The notes beneath the pieces are model-generated. The model ran no database searches and was not told the origin of the DNA. It was given only the letters and a program-made list of their open reading frames with translations. Source: Eledone cirrhosa (taxonomy: Eukaryota). Taken from it: 64,000 bases of DNA. The position numbers and the translations under genes are program-made. Shown here one piece after another: positions 7,409 through 60,529 of the stretch. Where the stretch lies: assembly GCA_964016885.1 (NCBI GenBank), contig OZ024761.1:4960001-5024000 (forward strand), read 5' to 3'. Position 1 is the stretch's first letter. Every line of letters starts with the position of its first letter.

Positions 7409-7949
7409 AAATATTAAAAAAATAATGAATAAAACAATGAAACAGTTCCTTATATTAAACAAAAAAAGTTCATTATTTAACGATCGTTTCTAGGATATAT
7501 ATGTGTTAGAATTGGCATGCATATTCAACAGATCTATGTACAAAATTATACAAAATTATACAAACTATCAAAATTAAATATACATACCAAACACATATAT
7601 ATGCCGTCTTCAGAAATAATGAAGACGGCATATATATGTGTTTGGTATGTATATTTAATTTTGATAGTTTGTATAATTTTGTATAATTTTGTACATAGAT
7701 CTGTTGAATATGCATGCCAATTCTAACACATATATATCCTAGAAACGATCGTTAAATAATGAACTTTTTTTGTTTAATATAAGGAACTGTTTCATTGTTT
7801 TATTCATTATTTTTTTTATATTTTATCTTGACTCTGTATTCCGTTTATCTTTCACCGAAAGTGATTTTTCATTGCATCTCTTCTTTCCATGATATCCGGA
7901 TTACATTGAGTTCTTCATACTACCGTAAACTCTTGGTAGATTTATCTAC
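7406..7949. mobile_element. Family-C near-perfect palindrome (arms 7406-7612 / 7620-7826) plus right tail, in (TA)n
   Basis: Reverse-complement arms of ~207 bp with a 7-nt spacer and unpaired tail 7827-7949. Confidence 0.85.
7471..7621 (-). ncRNA. Hammerhead motif with ~115-nt extended stem II
   Basis: Minus: CATTATTT-CTGAAGA-CGGC ATATATATGTGTT...AACACATATATAT CCTA-GAAA-CGATCG-T-T-AAATAATG. 8-bp stem I, palindromic stem III. Confidence 0.75.
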
Positions 7950-7952
7950 ATA

Positions 7953-8818
<866 letters not shown>

Positions 8819-9102: not shown

Positions 9103-9180
9103 TCGTTGATGTGTTAGTGTGATGGTAACACAGTAGTCTAGATAACCAAAGATGTGGGTTTGACTCCCGTCTACGTCAGT
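9103..9180 (+). mobile_element. tRNA-like SINE head
   Basis: A-box-like TAGTGTGATGG and B-box-like GGTTTGACTCCC, with acceptor-like pairing GTTGATGT/ACGTCAGT. Confidence 0.45.
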
Positions 9181-22805: not shown

Positions 22806-23912
22806 GCACATGTGCATATATATATACAACAGAGGCCCCCAAATCGAAGTATAAGGCAGACATAAAACTAGGTGGGTGTTATTTTTAAAGAAAAGTAAAG
22901 TGGGTGTTTGGAAAAGTTATTGTTTCGACTAGACAAAGGTAGAGTGTGATATATATCTTCACAGCAATAGCTTGGTGGCTTTGGAGCTTAGGCGAATCCC
23001 TTAGTACAGACATATATACCCACCCACACTTTTATATCTCTGGATGCGTGTGTATGTCTATATACACATGTGCACTCATACAAGAGAGCATATACAAATA
23101 TACTCTTAAGCATACACTCGAACATTTTTCAAATGCAACCTGGGGTATTAGTATTTCGTTGCGTTCACATGAGTGTGTACATTCACGTAATCCCAGTATA
23201 CACACACAGTGCACGGTTGCGGGCACTCATTCATGCGTATAGGGTTAGTACCTTGGGATAATTGTTCTTCCTGTGTGGGCCACTCCCGGGGTGGTGTGGG
23301 GGTTTCTCAGGTTCAATAAACGTGGTTTTGTTGACTCCTAACCAGTAGAGGATCCGGTGGACAATCCACCATAGGGGCCACAAACTATGGGTGGATGTTG
23401 TTGCCCATTGGTCATTGGTAGGGGATGTAGGGGACCTACAGGGGGGGGGGCGTTGTGGGAGGCCATAACCGGGGTTTATCCATATAGCTTGAGGAAAGTT
23501 CCCGTCCTTAGGTGTCTGCAGGCGCCGAATAAGTCGGCCCTTCTGTTTAATAGCTTGGTTCCGCCATGAAGTATCTCGAGTGTCTCACTAAGACAGAGGT
23601 TGCAAATACCCACCTCTGTCTGGGGGAACCTTTCTAACCACGGACCAGACCAGAGAGTGCGGGGTCTTTTCAAGTTTGAGCTTCCAGATCAATTCAGAAA
23701 GGGCCGTACATTTCCTCTTTTCTATTCTGTTAAAGGAATGGCGATGGTTATACCACCGATCTTTGAAGCTCGTCGCCGTGGATCCTATGTAGTGGTGCTC
23801 CGAGTTAGGGGTTGTGACCTTGCACCTATAGACTACGTTTTTCGTCATGCAAGTGAGTGAGAGAGAGGGATATATACATATATATATATATATGTATATA
23901 TCCCCCTCTCTC

Positions 23913-24994
23913 TTAATTTTCTTGATTTTTTAGTTGATTCTATTGACTGATGAATAGCTTATGTTAATTTTAACCCTTCTGTTGAGAACTCTATTCGATT
24001 TGTGATGTTTTTGGATTCTTGCAAAAATATACACAACTGAATTCATTCGCCTGATATAGGGGTTGCCTCCCTTGCCGATCCACACGTGGGGTCAGCAATA
24101 GTCAGTCCTTGTATTAACATTGAACTAAAACCTGTTGAGAAAGTGGCTTCCTTGTTCAATCATCTTACCAGAAGCCTGACATTATTTATGTAAGCGGACG
24201 GTACTTGATTTAGGAGCCGCAGAAACCCATATACTGGATTTTACCAACCTTCCAGGGGTCCGGGTAAATTTTCAATACCCGAATTACTTGATCGTTGTTT
24301 TGGCTATGCGAATGATTGTTTAACCATCGTCTCAGTGTGTTTGGCCTTTAACGTTTGTTATAGCTCTGGTTCATCTGAATCATTGAGCACTTGCCGCACA
24401 TCTCGGAGGTTGTTTTTCGTTATTTCGTGGGCCGAAATGCGAATCTCGATAATTTATGTTTGTATTATTCTCCAGACTCTAGCTATTGACCAGTTAATTT
24501 TCTTGATTTTTTAGTTGATTCTATTGACTGATGAATAGCTTATGTTAATTTTAACCCTTCTGTTGAGAACTTTATTCGATTTGTGATGTTTTTGCATTCT
24601 TGCAAAAATATACACAACTGAATTCATCGCCTGATATAGGGGTTGCCTCCCTTGCCGATCCACACGTGGGGTCAGCAATAGTCAGTCCTTGTATTAACAT
24701 TGAACTAAAACCTGTTGAGAAAGTGGCTTCCTTGTTCAATCATCTTATCAGAAGCCTGACATTATTTATGTAAGCGGACGGTACTTGATTTAGGGTAAAT
24801 TTTCAATACCCGAATTACTTGATCGTTGTTTTGGCTATGCGAATGATTGTTTAACCATCGTCTCAGTGTGTTTGGCCTTTAACGTTTGTTATAGCTCTGG
24901 TTTATCTGAATCATTGAACACTTGCCGCACATCTCGGAGGTTGTTTTTCGTTATTTCGTGGGCCGAAATGCGAATCTCGATAATTTATGTTTGT
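23913..24994. repeat. ~580-bp direct tandem duplication inside the PLE remnant
   Basis: 23913-24463 is nearly identical to 24494-24994; the second copy lacks ~50 bp (24214-24262). Confidence 0.92.
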
Positions 24995-44943: not shown

Positions 44944-45083
44944 GCATCACCTTGAGAAAGCTGGCTACCATTGTACACTAGAGAATGTGGAGACTGTTCA
45001 AAACATTGATGTTCTTCTCCAACAACATGAGATATCGGCTATATTTGCTCTCCATGCTTATCATTCAGGGAAGATTCTTATAA
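44944..45083 (+). CDS. GLT1D1: GLT1D1-like, coding exon 2
   Basis: HHLEKAGYHCTL..SAIFALHAYHSGKILI; TTTAG acceptor, GTAAG donor, phases 2/1 fit the neighbours. Confidence 0.92.
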
Positions 45084-46477: not shown

Positions 46478-46589
46478 AAAGCCATCTAAACTTACCATAT
46501 GCTGTGATTCTTGGTGGAACTGATGTCAATGAATATCATAGAAATAATGATTACATGGAGGTTATGACTTCAATTTTAAAACATTCGAG
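46478..46589 (+). CDS. GLT1D1: GLT1D1-like, coding exon 3
   Basis: SHLNLPYAVILGGTDVNE.. (GGTDVNE signature); TTTCAG / GTAATG; phases 1/2. Confidence 0.95.
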
Positions 46590-48385: not shown

Positions 48386-49412
48386 GAATCAAAGTCGGTT
48401 TCTTGCAGTTCGATAATGTTACATCAGACAAGTTTGGAAGAAGTCGATGCTAAATGGACTAAAATGTTGTTTGTAAACCATATCTTCTCAGTTGGAACAG
48501 CCAATATTTAGGTCAGAGTAAACAATTGTAAAATCTATTTTTGTTGCATCTTGTTTATTTATTAACTCATGAATACTAACTTCAGTATCAATGTAAAAAA
48601 CTGTGTATTCATTCTCTCACAGTTCATTACATAAATTATCAACCACACCTACTTAACATTTCTCAAGCTCAATATTCACACACTTTCTAACAGAACAATA
48701 TTTAAAACATACGTCACTCTTTTATGTAAACATGAAAAATTGCAAAATCATTTGCTGTTGAACCCAACAACAATAACTGTTTCTACTTTTGGCACAAGGC
48801 CAGCAATTACCCAGTACATTACTGGTAGACTACCACTACTACCACTACCACCACTACTACTACCACTACCACCACTACTACTACTACCACCACCACTACT
48901 ATTACTACTACTACTACCACCACTACTACTATCACCACCACTACTATTATGACCACCACTACTATTACCACCACCACCACTACTTCTACTACCACCACCA
49001 CTACTACTACCACCACCACCACTAGAGGTCGTGTAGGTGTCACGACAAAAAAACACACAGTCCACGCTGTAATGTGGCCGTGTAGGTAACACGGTAAAAA
49101 CCTCCCAGTCCACACTGTAAACGTGGTTGGTGTTGGGAAGGGCATCCAGCCGTAGAAAACCCGCCAGACAGTCCTATATGAGCAGGACAACCAATCTTGC
49201 CTCAAGTGGGAAAATTCCCGTCCAAACCCATGCTAGCGTGGAAGATGGACGTTAAACGATGATGATGATGATGGTGATTACTGGTTCTTTATTTTATTGA
49301 GCCCGTAAGGATGAAAGGCAAAGTTAACCTCGGCAGGATTTGAACTCATAACCTGACAATAATAATAAGAATTATTTTACTGTTTTCCTTTATTTAGTAA
49401 CATTTTCTTTAT

Positions 49413-49857
49413 TAGCTTTATACAATATGTACATTAATTTCGTATTTCTAAAGAAATACGGTTTTAGGAAGCTGTAGCTATGCAAACACTGGGGCTAACG
49501 CCCTCTGGTGGTGTCTAGCAGAAGCAAGGGAGACAACCATCTATGCATTTCAGGCTTGACTGGCCTTCTTCAGGACGGTCCCTCCCACCGCTTGCTACTA
49601 CTGCACTTGAAAACAGACGAGAATATATAGTTGTCTCGTCTGTGTAAATGAGCTGATTAATCTCATTTGCATATGAAGCTACATAAGTTGGCTCAACTTA
49701 GAATAGAAAAGAAATAAGATTTCACTTCAAGCATAGCTTTGTACAATATGTATAGAAATTTCGTATTTCCAAAGAAATACGGTTTTAGAAAGCCGTAGCT
49801 ATGCAAACACCTGGGGCTAACGCCCTCTGGTGGTGTCCAGCAGAAGCAAGGGGGACA
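49413..49857 (-). mobile_element. Retrozyme-like element: ~321-bp unit plus partial repeat, flanked by a 53-bp direct duplication
   Basis: 49413-49535 is similar to 49734-49857; flanks 49356-49408 = 49869-49921; HHR inside. Confidence 0.8.
49536..49579 (-). ncRNA. Minimal type I hammerhead ribozyme, fully canonical core
   Basis: Minus: ACCGTC-CTGAAGA-AGGC cagtcaa GCCT-GAAA-TGCA-T-A-GATGGT. Confidence 0.92.
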
Positions 49858-49945
49858 TATTTAACCCAACAATAATAATAAGAATTATTTTACTGTTTTC
49901 CTTTATTTAGTAACATTTTCTGAAAGATTCTTATTCTTTTGTCAG

Positions 49946-49997
49946 GAAAATAATTGGATTCAGTGAGGAGATGATTGACAATGCCACAAAGTTATGG
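49946..49997 (+). CDS. GLT1D1: GLT1D1-like, coding exon 4
   Basis: (R)KIIGFSEEMIDNATKLW; GTCAG / GTAATA; phases 2/0. Confidence 0.9.
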
Positions 49998-50204
49998 GTA
50001 ATATCGCTGTTGCTTTTCATTCTACTTTGATATACACAGTAATTAGTGTGGGTCAGCAGATGGTTTACCTGGAGGTGGGGTCACCTTTGTGATTGGTTAG
50101 AAGGACTGGAGCTGCAGGTCAAGGTTAGAAGTTAGAGGGGAGATGGTTTAATTCTTCATTGACCTGTCCAGATCTTGGGGCTGTTTATTGATGTATGGTT
50201 TACA

Positions 50205-57500: not shown

Positions 57501-58033
57501 AAGAGAGTATTGAAGTTTGCTTGAAGCATTGTGGAACAATAAGTAAATATTTATAAGTCGTTTGGAAGCCTCGACAATGCAAATGGGTAAATCTCTGGGT
57601 AACAAGGTCCGGTGGTGGAGAGAGAGATATGTAAGTGGGTGTACGTTGAGATGCGTGGTGTGTATAAGATGTGTGAGATGTGTAGAATGAAAGGAAGAGT
57701 AAAAGAATAAAAATAATAATAACAACACAAGAGAGAGTTACCTTGGGAGAGATTTAATAGTCCCTATATATTTCGGATTCACATCCATCAACTGGGGTTT
57801 TTTCCGGGGTGGGGGAAAAGGTTGTCTGTCGGACAACTCGGAACGCGTCTTTCGCTGTCTGTTGATTTGAATATCTGAGGTATTCGGCCGAGCGCGCGTG
57901 CGCGTGAAATGGGGTCGGTCGTACAGAGGTCAGCGGCCGAATGAGGGAGTGGGATGGCACTAGCTGTCAGTCCATTCTCTGCCTGTTTGTTAAATGTTAC
58001 TGTGTGTGTGTGTGCGTGTGTTGTCTCGCTTGA

Positions 58034-58065
<32 letters not shown>

Positions 58066-60353
58066 GTTGTTGCCTTGTTCATCTGTATTGGCAGTGTAGT
58101 ATGTTCGTATGGTGGAATGCTACTGTGTGTGTGTGTGTGTGTAGTTGTCTCGTTTGCGTGTGTGTGTGCGTGTGTTGTGTGTCGTTGCATCGCTTGTTAA
58201 CTTAAACCAGCCATTTCATTTCGCTTCTCTCTAATCGGTTGTTTATTTGCGGTTGCAGTTGTTTGATAAGAAGCGCTTCCTTAATACGTAACGTGTCGAC
58301 GTTTCTTTCAATCGCTAGAATTGTGACAATGGGCCTTCCGTCTTTGTTTCTGCATTTGTCTATGTGTTTCTGGAAAGACGAGGCCCTGGTTTTAATGTGT
58401 TCCTTGATCCGGATGTGCATAAGTCGAATTGTGCTACCTATGTAGTATTGGTTGCACCTGTCACATTCTATCTTATACACGACGTATGTGCGTAGGCAAC
58501 AGTTAGCATGGCGTATCGGGCAGTCTCTGAGGGAGCATGCGTCAGTAGATTTTTCGGGTTTTCTGGAGAGGCATCTTCACAGGGAGGGGCCCGAGTGGGC
58601 CAGGTGGATGTCGAGGCCCTCCCTCCGTATAGCCTTACGGATAGCGTTGGTGGTTTTCTCGCCCAGGTGTGGAATATTAAGGAAGCACTTGCTTTGGGTG
58701 CTTCTCTGTCTCTTGCGTCTGGTGTCTCCTATTCTGTCTGTGATCGAGGTAGGGTACCCGTTCGTCTCCAGCACCTCGAGGAATCGCTTGGTATGAGTGA
58801 CACCACTGGCGGGATCGCTACATCTGTTTTTGAAATCGCGCGATCTCGTTCGTGATGTATCCTCTTTTGGCACTGTTAGGGAGGGCGGACTTGTAGTGAA
58901 CGAACAGGTCCCTGCAGGCTGCCTTTCTGTAGAAGTTGCAGTGGATCCCTCCTTGTTCCGTGATGTTGATTCGGAAGTCGAGGAGGGCAAGTGACCCGTC
59001 TTCGTTGGGGTGTTCAACACTGAAGTCAATGTTCTCGTCCGTGTTGTTGAACATCTCATAGATTCTGTTCGCCGTGTCTTGGGAAGATGTGAGGATGAGG
59101 ATATCGTCCACGTATCTTGAGAAAAAGGCTACGGCGTTGAGGTGGCAGGCGTTGAGAGCCTTTCGTTCGAGGTTGTCCATGTAGGAGATCGCTAGCACAC
59201 CTGATAGACTTGATCCCATGGGCAATCCCGAGGTTTGTTGGTATATTTGGTCAAGGAATCCGAAGTAGGTGTTGTCGACGACGATGGATAGGAGTTGGTG
59301 GATGTCAGTGGTGGTGAGCCCGAAGCAGTGTAGAAAACCCGAAAAATCTACTGACGCATGCTCCCTCAGAGACTGCCCGATACGCCATGCTAACTGTTGC
59401 TTACGCACATACGTTGTGTATAAGATAGAATGTGACAGGTGCAACCAATACTACATAGGTAGCACAATTCGACCTTTGCACATCCGGATCAAGGAACACA
59501 TTAAAACCAGGGCCTCGTCTTTCCGGAAACACGTAGACAAATGCGGAAACAAAGATGGAAGGCCCATTGTCACAATTCTAGCGACTGAAAGAAACGTTGA
59601 CACGTTACGTATTAAGGAAGCGCTTCTTATCAAACAACTGCAACCGCAAATAAACAACCGATTAGAGAGAAGCGAAATGAAATGGCTGGTTTAAGTTAAC
59701 AAGCGATGCAACAACACACAACACACGCACACACACACGCAAACGAGACAACTACACACACACACACACGCACGCACACACACAGTAGCATTCCACCATA
59801 CGAACATACTACACTGCCAATACAGATGAACAAGGCAACAACACACGCACACACACACACACTCAAGCGAGACAACAACACACGCACACACACACGCAGT
59901 AACATTTAACAAACAGGCAGAGAATGGACTGACAGCTAGCGCCATCCCACTCCCTCATTCGGCCGCTGACCTCTGTACGACCGACCCCATTTCACGCGCA
60001 CGCGCGCTCAGCCGAATACCTCAGATATTCAAATCAACAGACAGCGAAAGACGTGTTCCGAGTTGTCCGACAGACAACCTTTTCCCCCACCCCAGAAAAA
60101 ACCCCAGTTGATGGATGTGAATCCGAAATATATAGAGACTATTAAATCTCTCCCAAGGTAACTCTCTCTCTTGTGTTGTTATTATTATTTTTATTCTTTT
60201 ACTCTTCCTTTCATTCTACACATCTCACACATCTTATACACACCACGCATCTCAACGCACACCCACTTACATATCTCTCTCTCCACCACCGGACCTTGTT
60301 ACCCGGAGATTTGCCCATTTGCATTGTCGAGGCTTCCAAATGACTTATAAATA
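57501..60353. mobile_element. Penelope-like element, 5'-truncated, head-to-head inverted structure, in (TA)n
   Basis: Minus arm 59329 to 57501 has RT (GLPMGSSLSGVLA..RYVDDIL..LLDFRI) and GIY-YIG (VVYKIECDRCNQYYIGSTIR..RIKEH), frameshifted. Plus arm 59332-60353 mirrors 57548-58564. Tail 57501-57546. Confidence 0.95.
57762..57797 (-). ncRNA. Non-canonical hammerhead-like motif in PLE pseudo-LTR (mirror copy 60102-60137, +)
   Basis: CCC-CAGTTGAT-GGAT gtga ATCC-GAAA-TATA-T-A-GGG. Confidence 0.6.
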
Positions 60354-60529
60354 TATATATATGATATAAAGAAGAGAGACAGTTTAGAATGTACATCCTC
60401 TCTTTATTATATAATCGTGTTATATGTATTTCGAAGATGTCAAAGTGATTGCACAATAACTGTTTGACGTCTTCAGAACTATAGACATGCACAGACAGAC
60501 CCAGTAACTTTGACATAACAATGGTCTCT

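What the first reader, a model, noticed from the sequence alone, without database searches (positions are those of the whole stretch)
49356..49921. Retrozyme-like insertion starting at its own hammerhead cut site
Seen: a non-coding ~321-nt unit plus a 123-nt repeat with one canonical minimal HHR. On the ribozyme strand the element begins at 49857, equivalent to 6 nt after the predicted cut (49542/49541). An unusually long 53-bp direct duplication flanks it and preserves intron sequence 24 nt before the exon-4 acceptor. It is not in (TA)n and not inverted. Known: metazoan non-LTR retrozymes are short HHR-containing tandem units processed to monomers and circles. Inference: reverse transcription of an HHR-cleaved or circular RNA for ~1.4 units.
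Basis: partly seen in the sequence, partly recalled or inferred. Interest (0 to 1): 0.8.

Follow-up and report, generated by a model that had tools for sequence, protein, structure and literature searches.

The report
Hammerhead retrozyme copy, long target duplication
This is one decayed copy of an abundant 321-base non-coding repeat that carries a predicted self-cutting RNA motif and was likely pasted into an intron by a Penelope-type jumping-gene enzyme, a known kind of element whose only oddities here are a 53-60-base flanking duplication and a start 6 bases from the predicted cut, a start that does not stand out among the family's other copies.

Summary
In detail: a 445-nt non-coding insert (one 321/322-nt unit plus a 123-nt repeat) with one type I hammerhead on the minus strand, starting 6 nt after the predicted cut, between direct duplications. 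These are identical over 53 bp and probably span 60 bp with one decayed CpG. Sequencing runs show an abundant family with a family-wide head-to-tail junction, a strongly self-pairing unit (z -4.9), and common 3' ends about 58 and 154-160 nt after the cut in TA-rich DNA, a Penelope-type signature. It works like an animal non-LTR retrozyme, a class proposed in print to be Penelope-mobilised. The headline claim is weak. The cut region is not among the 12 best-supported copy ends shown (of 331), chance alone gives about 2%, and a circle has no end at the cut. Repeat-versus-duplication divergence cannot separate a circular from a multimeric template. This copy is atypical: non-standard 3' end, non-(TA)n target, long duplication. 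Cleavage, circles, multimer arrays and the empty site are untested. The scan already noted several such families in this genome, and cut-site starts here and in other genomes. New member of a known kind; interest 0.3.

The parts
49349..49408 (+). Left copy of the flanking duplication (60 bp; the identical 53-bp core is 49356-49408); 80% AT; not family sequence
   Evidence: summed depth 7-11 in bin 49380-49404 in runs X1-X3, like the unique right flank
49409..49412 (-). 4-nt filler at the element's 3' junction
49413..49535 (-). 3' terminal repeat (123 nt); ends 129 nt after the predicted cut; holds an 8-bp hairpin at 49441-49460
49535..49580 (-). Type I hammerhead motif; predicted cut between 49542 and 49541; the family majority has a Watson-Crick pair in helix I where this copy has G-U (49539)
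   Evidence: motif scan with 0 of 30 shuffles; folds; family variants; not found by Rfam
49516..49600 (-). Extended helix I: the post-cut segment pairs with the segment before the ribozyme, closing the unit into a rod
   Evidence: -36.1 kcal/mol for 49505-49605
49536..49857 (-). One full period (322 nt, 41.9% GC); element-wide longest stop-free frame about 60 codons; circular fold -98.6 kcal/mol, z -4.9
   Evidence: 0 of 200 shuffles folded as well
49734..49857 (-). 5' terminal repeat (124 nt); element 5' end at 49857, equivalent to cut + 6 nt
49858..49861 (-). 4-nt filler at the 5' junction (11 nt, to 49868, if the duplication is read as 53 bp)
   Evidence: junction present with 0 differences in a contig of run X3 and as a joint in X1
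49862..49921 (+). Right copy of the flanking duplication (core 49869-49921); keeps the original intron sequence in front of the acceptor
49946..49997 (+). 52-nt host exon, 24 nt after the duplication; the ribozyme strand is antisense to this gene
   Evidence: AG/GT and open frame, phase-compatible with exon candidates 44944-45083 and 46478-46589

Best explanation
This is a decayed, 1.4-unit copy of an abundant 321-nt hammerhead-bearing non-coding repeat that works like an animal non-LTR retrozyme and was likely written into the intron by a Penelope-like (PLE) reverse transcriptase acting in trans on a linear RNA longer than one unit. Shown: the unit, the motif, the duplication, the family's abundance, its head-to-tail junction and its TA-flanked ends. 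Inferred steps: (1) a multimeric family transcript was bound by a PLE protein; (2) AT-rich intron DNA was nicked on the two strands about 60 nt apart; (3) copying began inside the RNA, 129 nt after an uncut ribozyme, with 4 extra bases; (4) it ran through that ribozyme and one whole unit; (5) it stopped 6 nt short of the next cut site upstream, somewhat more likely because the RNA had been cut there than by random truncation; (6) joining added 4 filler bases and gap filling made the duplication; (7) the copy then decayed with a GC-to-AT bias. It lies antisense to the host gene, so the motif would not cut the pre-mRNA, and the duplication leaves the acceptor's upstream sequence intact.
For: Abundance: 3,539 contigs of run X1 lie on one unit, with median summed depth about 6,500 times the flank (not a copy number). 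1,712 reads of RAD run X5, another sample and study, lie on it too. Unit period is family-wide: depth does not fall across the 49733/49734 junction; 16 X1 contigs run on from 49413 into the unit end (agreement 0.83); joints going back 322 and 314 nt appear in X1 and X5. Penelope-type ends: loose ends into TA-rich DNA at 49703 (17 X1 contigs, 296 X5 reads), 49709 (95 X5 reads) and 49484 (22 X1 contigs), i.e. 160, 154 and 58 nt after the cut. The 5 other hammerhead elements of this window meet (TA)n 50, 50, 52, 54 and 153 nt after their cuts. An RT and a GIY-YIG remnant lie at 58821-59691. In vitro, an anole PLE nicks both strands of AT-rich DNA, starts copying inside the RNA downstream of the ribozyme and uses mainly uncut RNA (PMC11167929). 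Retrozymes are proposed as PLE-mobilised or PLE-derived (PMC7229834; bioRxiv 10.64898/2026.07.22.740005). Slight lean to non-identical units: 0 differences in the 53-bp core against 3.5 expected if all change came after insertion (P 0.03).
Against: This copy lacks the family's usual 3' ends and (TA)n target. PLE duplications in the passages read were 8-10 bp (PMC3846280), far from 53-60. With the 60-bp reading the divergence test is not significant (2 of 60 versus 10 of 124, Fisher p 0.34; composition-corrected P 0.20), so a circle fits as well. The cut region is absent from the 12 loose-end rows shown of 331, and X5 shows 5'-type ends elsewhere (49679, 49748). The unit has no significant match to the PLE fragments or other hammerhead elements of the window (best E 0.14), so no partner PLE is identified. 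The 49484 end class has low agreement (0.57) and may partly be an internal variant. X1-X3 are one sample and may be the source of the window.
Confidence: 0.55

Rival explanations
1. Same family and enzyme, but the template was a monomer RNA circle copied for 1.4 laps. The stop near the ligation site is chance or a pause, and all differences between the two repeats arose after insertion.
For: Circular fold z -4.9 with the post-cut and pre-ribozyme segments paired. Repeat divergence (9-10) matches the 11.6 expected from post-insertion decay alone. Circles are shown for coral, mussel and axolotl retrozymes (PMC7229834).
Against: A circle offers no 5' end at the cut, and the enzyme had already passed that site once. 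The 53-bp core has 0 differences against 3.5 expected (P 0.03). Only 1 of 21 private changes is A-to-G on the ribozyme strand, so there is no editing scar shared by the two repeats.
Confidence: 0.3
2. The insert came from this family but not through the PLE endonuclease. It was either patched into a staggered DNA break from RNA or from another genomic copy, or mobilised in trans by a LINE such as RTE. Both ends are then arbitrary.
For: Non-standard 3' end, non-(TA)n target, filler at both junctions, 53-60 bp duplication. Duplications over 50 bp are reported for Dualen and R9 LINEs (PMC9977147 passage). Break-patch insertions exist (PMC5110952 abstract).
Against: No poly(A) or simple-repeat tail. 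The target is 80% AT, as PLE nicking prefers (PMC11167929). The 3' end lies between the family's two end classes, in the zone where PLE priming is seen.
Confidence: 0.1
3. The stretch is only the truncated pseudo-LTR end of a longer coding PLE, with no monomer RNA.
For: Single ribozyme; PLE remnants and 5 PLE-type hammerheads lie in the same window; retrozymes and pLTRs are related in Xenopus.
Against: The sequence closes on itself after 321 nt in this and other copies. None of the 12 loose-end rows shown is a shared read-out into new sequence: the well-agreed ones are unit variants or single loci. The ribozyme has the retrozyme shape (PMC4209133).
Confidence: 0.05

Closest known systems
Metazoan non-LTR retrozymes of coral, mussel and axolotl (Cervera and de la Pena 2020, PMC7229834; sections 13, 14, 17 and passages read)
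   Same: 150-450-nt non-coding unit, GC under 50%, type I hammerhead with weak palindromic helix III, strongly self-paired predicted circle, head-to-tail junction, duplications longer than 4 bp, PLEs in the same genome
   Different: Here only 1.4 units and one ribozyme at the locus; cleavage, circles and multimer arrays not shown; 'octopus' does not occur in that paper's main text; duplication of 53-60 bp
Retrozymes as non-autonomous PLE derivatives (Li, Clavereau, Pollet 2026, bioRxiv 10.64898/2026.07.22.740005; parts 1-3 of 5 read, supplements not seen)
   Same: Dispersed monomers and partial copies of a hammerhead unit; co-occurrence with PLEs; about 43% of Xenopus copies lie in introns
   Different: Their 'active' criterion (two consecutive units with complete ribozymes) is not met at this locus; no homologous pLTR was found here; mollusc genomes were not in their sample
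Poseidon PLE of Anolis (PAc; Frangieh et al. 2024, PMC11167929; parts 1-2 of 4 read)
   Same: AT-rich target, both strands cut, copying starts inside the RNA downstream of the hammerhead, read-through of an uncut ribozyme
   Different: PAc is coding; its main start is about 85-92 nt after the cut (my arithmetic from the text) against 129 here; the authors found no RNA reads beginning or ending at the cut
PLE minimal hammerheads (Cervera and de la Pena 2014, PMC4209133; part 1 of 4 read), as in the 5 other motifs of this window
   Same: Type I core, palindromic helix III predicted to need a dimer (1-bp helix III costs 5.4 kcal/mol; the palindrome self-pairs at -6.7)
   Different: Those have a long helix II and a short AT-rich helix I and end in (TA)n; this one has a 4-bp helix II and a long GC-rich helix I

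Membership tests
Metazoan non-LTR retrozyme | Type I hammerhead with intact core and helices | tested here: met
   0 of 30 shuffles; Rfam gave no hit
Metazoan non-LTR retrozyme | Unit of about 150-450 nt, GC under 50% | tested here: met
   321/322 nt, 41.9% GC
Metazoan non-LTR retrozyme | Non-coding | tested here: met
   six-frame translation, longest stop-free stretch about 60 codons
Metazoan non-LTR retrozyme | No primer-binding site or polypurine tract | not tested
   no formal scan
Metazoan non-LTR retrozyme | Multi-copy, with head-to-tail unit junction | tested here: met
   3,539 contigs in X1 and 1,712 reads in X5; junction in 16 X1 contigs and in joints of both runs
Metazoan non-LTR retrozyme | Arrays with two or more complete ribozyme units | tested here: inconclusive
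   this locus has one ribozyme; the pieces listed (at most about 215 nt aligned on the unit) and 150-nt reads cannot span two; no genome held
Metazoan non-LTR retrozyme | Highly self-paired predicted circle | tested here: met
   -98.6 kcal/mol, z -4.9, 0 of 200 shuffles
Metazoan non-LTR retrozyme | Self-cleavage, and monomer or circular RNA in cells | not testable with these tools
   needs a cleavage assay and northern or RNase R
Autonomous EN+ Penelope-like element | ORF with RT and GIY-YIG | tested here: not met
   no ORF in the insert
Autonomous EN+ Penelope-like element | Unit homologous to the pLTR of a coding PLE | tested here: inconclusive
   no significant match to 6 PLE or hammerhead stretches of the window; the rest of the genome could not be searched
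PLE-mobilised element | Fixed 3' ends downstream of the hammerhead in AT- or TA-rich targets | tested here: met
   met for the family (58 and 154-160 nt), not for this copy (129 nt)
PLE-mobilised element | Flanking duplication is a target-site duplication (empty site holds it once) | tested here: inconclusive
   one X2 contig has 33 non-element letters, the duplication and the right flank, but short-word contigs cannot phase a 53-bp repeat
Cut-site-defined insertion | Family 5' ends enriched at the ribozyme cut | tested here: inconclusive
   not among the 12 rows shown of 331 (X1 rows hold 12-32 contigs each), so not dominant; mild enrichment is not excluded

The most novel reading that the evidence does not exclude
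The copy is a genomic fossil of hammerhead cleavage in an animal germline. A PLE enzyme copied a linear dimer-derived RNA whose upstream ribozyme had cut and whose downstream one had not, ran off the cut 5' end, and did so through a second insertion route (non-standard priming site, non-(TA)n target, nicks about 60 nt apart). Retrozymes would then spread from partly cleaved linear multimers as well as from circles, and PLE enzymes would be able to make very long target duplications.
Probability: 0.3. Interest if true: 0.55.

Novelty: new member of a known kind. Interest (0 to 1): 0.3.

Why it matters
How animal retrozymes get into DNA, and whether their ribozymes cut the template in cells, is proposed but not shown in the papers read (PMC7229834, PMC7761336, PMC11167929, the 2026 preprint). 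A family with thousands of variants and fixed Penelope-type ends makes this testable by counting copy ends. This single decayed copy adds little: younger, multi-unit families in the same genome were already noted by the scan and are better material. Its useful oddity is the 53-60 bp duplication, well above the 8-10 bp seen for PLEs in the passages read.

Tried and rejected
No whole genome is held, so arrays, partner PLEs and a full end histogram could not be computed. Rfam found no hammerhead at gathering score or at E up to 10. No other copy of the unit lies in the window. Run search: no RNA holder listed. Run X4 (kind not on record, 0.06 of words) covers the predicted exon to the base (bin depths fit 49944-49997) and has no cover in the two adjoining bins; it may be a spliced-RNA library, but it is not used as evidence on expression of the element. 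Empty site: the X2 contig is ambiguous. My first argument against a circle (0 of 53 versus 10 of 124, p 0.034) was weakened by the 60-bp reading (p 0.34) and by GC-biased decay (15 of 21 private changes start from G or C). RNA-editing scars: 1 of 21 changes, rejected. Pol III A and B boxes (patterns recalled): only loose one-mismatch hits, no convincing pair. The short 76-nt ribozyme window alone does not fold better than shuffles (z -1.08); the signal is in the motif and the whole unit. Host gene name: no significant Pfam hit for two candidate exons, and no PDB or Atlas hit for the one tested; a likeness to GLT1D1 is recalled, not tested. Sequence look-ups among earlier findings gave nothing, nor did the look-up near this place. 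Literature: searches. One search listed 25 of 79 papers and none reports an octopus retrozyme; the O. vulgaris repeat paper has no 'ribozyme' or 'retrozyme' in its main text. Subscription papers and all supplements were not seen and may list this family.

Full report
Observation. The window is eukaryotic, rich in microsatellites, and octopus-like (recalled repeat style; earlier notes on this genome say the same). No whole genome is held. The feature is real. A duplication at 49356-49408 and 49869-49921 is identical over 53 bp. It extends to 60 bp with two adjacent mismatches, TG in one copy and CA in the other, which is what one CpG gives when it decays on opposite strands. The 5 extra matching bases have a chance of about 0.001 in that register. 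I therefore prefer 60 bp, which leaves 4 filler bases at each junction. Inside lie 445 nt: repeats at 49413-49535 and 49734-49857 (114 of 123 identical plus 1 gap) and a 198-nt middle. The minus strand carries one type I hammerhead at 49580-49535 with the cut between 49542 and 49541; 0 of 30 shuffled windows gave as good a motif, though Rfam missed it. The element's 5' end equals cut + 6.

The unit as RNA. One period (49857-49536, 322 nt, 41.9% GC) folds as a circle at -98.6 kcal/mol against -72.9 +/- 5.2 for shuffles (z -4.9, 0 of 200). The stretch after the cut pairs with the stretch before the ribozyme, extending helix I into a long rod, and the rest forms hairpins. Helix III is weak: closing it costs 5.4 kcal/mol, while the palindrome self-pairs at -6.7, so cleavage would likely need a dimer, as described for such motifs (PMC4209133, part 1 of 4 read). 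By that paper's definitions this is the canonical metazoan shape. The 5 other hammerheads in the window (2161, 5453, 6308, 22126, 27299) have the long-helix-II PLE shape. No reading frame exceeds about 60 codons.

The family. Seven runs were listed, 4 holding part of the stretch. I laid X1-X4 on 49280-50010 and X1 and X5 on 49360-49750. X1-X3 are one sample and may be the window's source; X5 is RAD data from another sample and study. In X1-X3 the two duplication copies and the right flank mostly have summed depth of about 7-45, while the unit has 20,000-180,000 in X1 (median about 6,500 times the flank; the tool warns this is no copy number). 3,539 X1 contigs and 1,712 X5 reads lie on one unit. 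An X3 contig runs from the element through the duplication into the flank with 0 differences, so that junction is in the run's data. Depth does not drop at the unit junction, 16 X1 contigs read from 49413 into the unit's end, and joints going back 322 and 314 nt occur in X1 and X5. The 321-nt period is thus a family property. None of the 12 loose-end rows shown (of 331) is a shared read-out into new sequence, which argues against a mere pLTR of a coding element. Arrays with two ribozymes could not be seen with such short pieces.

Ends. The commonest 3' ends shown run into TA-rich DNA at 49703 (17 contigs; 296 reads), 49709 (95 reads) and 49484 (22 contigs, agreement only 0.57). These are 160, 154 and 58 nt after the cut. 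The window's other hammerhead elements reach (TA)n 50, 50, 52, 54 and 153 nt after their cuts, and RT and GIY-YIG remnants lie at 58821-59691. This fits PLE machinery, which in vitro nicks both strands of AT-rich DNA, primes inside the RNA downstream of the ribozyme and uses mostly uncut RNA (PMC11167929, parts 1-2 of 4). This copy's own 3' end, at 129 nt, is not one of those classes, and its target is not (TA)n. For 5' ends, the cut region (49530-49542) is not among the 6 rows shown for X1 (12-32 contigs each) or the 6 for X5, and X5 shows 5'-type ends at 49679 and 49748, each probably one locus. A dominant cut-site bias is therefore unlikely; a mild one is not excluded, since 319 rows were hidden. 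Three single X1 contigs leave the unit at 49530, 49534 and 49535 and rejoin at 49607-49610 with unknown letters between; I cannot read these. A uniform truncation falls at cut+0..+6 with probability 7/321 = 2.2%, and the case was picked after the fact.

Template. A circle predicts identical repeats at insertion and no end at the cut; a linear multimer allows both differences and a cut end. The copy differs from the X1 majority at 21 listed sites (further rows hidden), 15 of them starting from G or C and 1 being A-to-G on the ribozyme strand. That looks like genomic decay, not RNA editing. At those rates the repeats should differ at 11.6 sites (9-10 seen), the 53-bp core at 3.5 (0 seen, P 0.03) and the 60-bp duplication at 4.3 (2 seen, P 0.20). 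The lean to a linear multimer is slight. My odds: linear and cut about 0.35, linear with random truncation 0.2, circle 0.3, non-PLE insertion 0.1, pLTR remnant 0.05.

Host. The insert is antisense in an intron, 24 nt before a 52-nt exon that is in phase with two upstream exon candidates. The ribozyme would not form in the pre-mRNA, and the duplication leaves 84 nt of original intron before the exon, so the copy is likely harmless. The gene was not named by any search (50, 51, 53).

Comparison. Animal non-LTR retrozymes are 150-450-nt, low-GC, type I hammerhead repeats with duplications longer than 4 bp, expressed as circles in coral, mussel and axolotl and proposed to use PLEs (PMC7229834, sections 13, 14, 17 and passages; PMC7761336 passages). 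A 2026 preprint links them to PLE pLTRs (parts 1-3 of 5). Every sequence-level feature of the class that could be decided here is met; multimer arrays were inconclusive, and cleavage and circles are untested. PLE duplications of 8-10 bp are reported in a rotifer (PMC3846280 passages), and they are often hidden by microsatellite targets (PMC8557442 passages). Duplications over 50 bp are reported for Dualen and R9 LINEs (PMC9977147 passages), so the length here is unusual but has precedent among retroelements. PMC8490949 (passages) and PMC5110952 (abstract) added only context. No octopus retrozyme paper turned up (25 of 79 listed); supplements and subscription papers were not seen.

Scan context. 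Earlier unchecked notes describe 310-, 422-, 467-, 523- and 591-nt families in this genome with two fixed ends, and several cut-site starts elsewhere with mixed verdicts. None matched this sequence. I found the two end classes before reading those notes; the editing test came from them.

Verdict. A real, older copy of a previously unlisted retrozyme-like family; new member of a known kind. The cut-site start is a single suggestive case. Interest 0.3.

Noticed in passing
window 2161(-), 5453(-), 6308(-), 22126(-), 27299(+): Five PLE-type hammerheads with long helix II and the same TATATA helix III palindrome, each running into (TA)n 50-54 nt (four) or 153 nt (one) after the cut; three look like one family.
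   Followed up: partly
window 57544-60357: Inverted 1-kb arms (95% identical) around RT and GIY-YIG remnants: a head-to-head Penelope-like insertion; my scan found no hammerhead in it.
   Followed up: partly
window 23588-23929 (-): Open frame that looks like a GIY-YIG endonuclease end by eye (recalled motif); no Pfam hit.
   Followed up: partly
window 49280-49352: An extremely high-copy short repeat (summed depth above 1e7 in X1) ends where the left duplication begins; the retrozyme sits at its broken end.
   Followed up: no
window 49530-49610 (X1 joints): Three single contigs leave the unit at 49530-49535 and rejoin at 49607-49610, skipping the ribozyme, letters between unknown: ribozyme-less variants, divergent ribozymes, or a jump from the cut end.
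   Followed up: no
window 49700-49750: A subfamily with a different 49700-49740 segment (32 X1 contigs) and a 314-nt period in X5 reads: the family has length variants.
   Followed up: no
window 44944-45083, 46478-46589, 49946-49997 (+): Three phase-compatible exon candidates of the host gene; a likeness to GLT1D1 is recalled, not confirmed by Pfam, PDB or Atlas.
   Followed up: partly
window 9108-9178 (+): Weak tRNA-like match (33 bits, Rfam RF00005), probably a SINE head.
   Followed up: no
window 7937-8779: About 355-bp inverted pair (95% identical), possibly another fold-back insertion.
   Followed up: no
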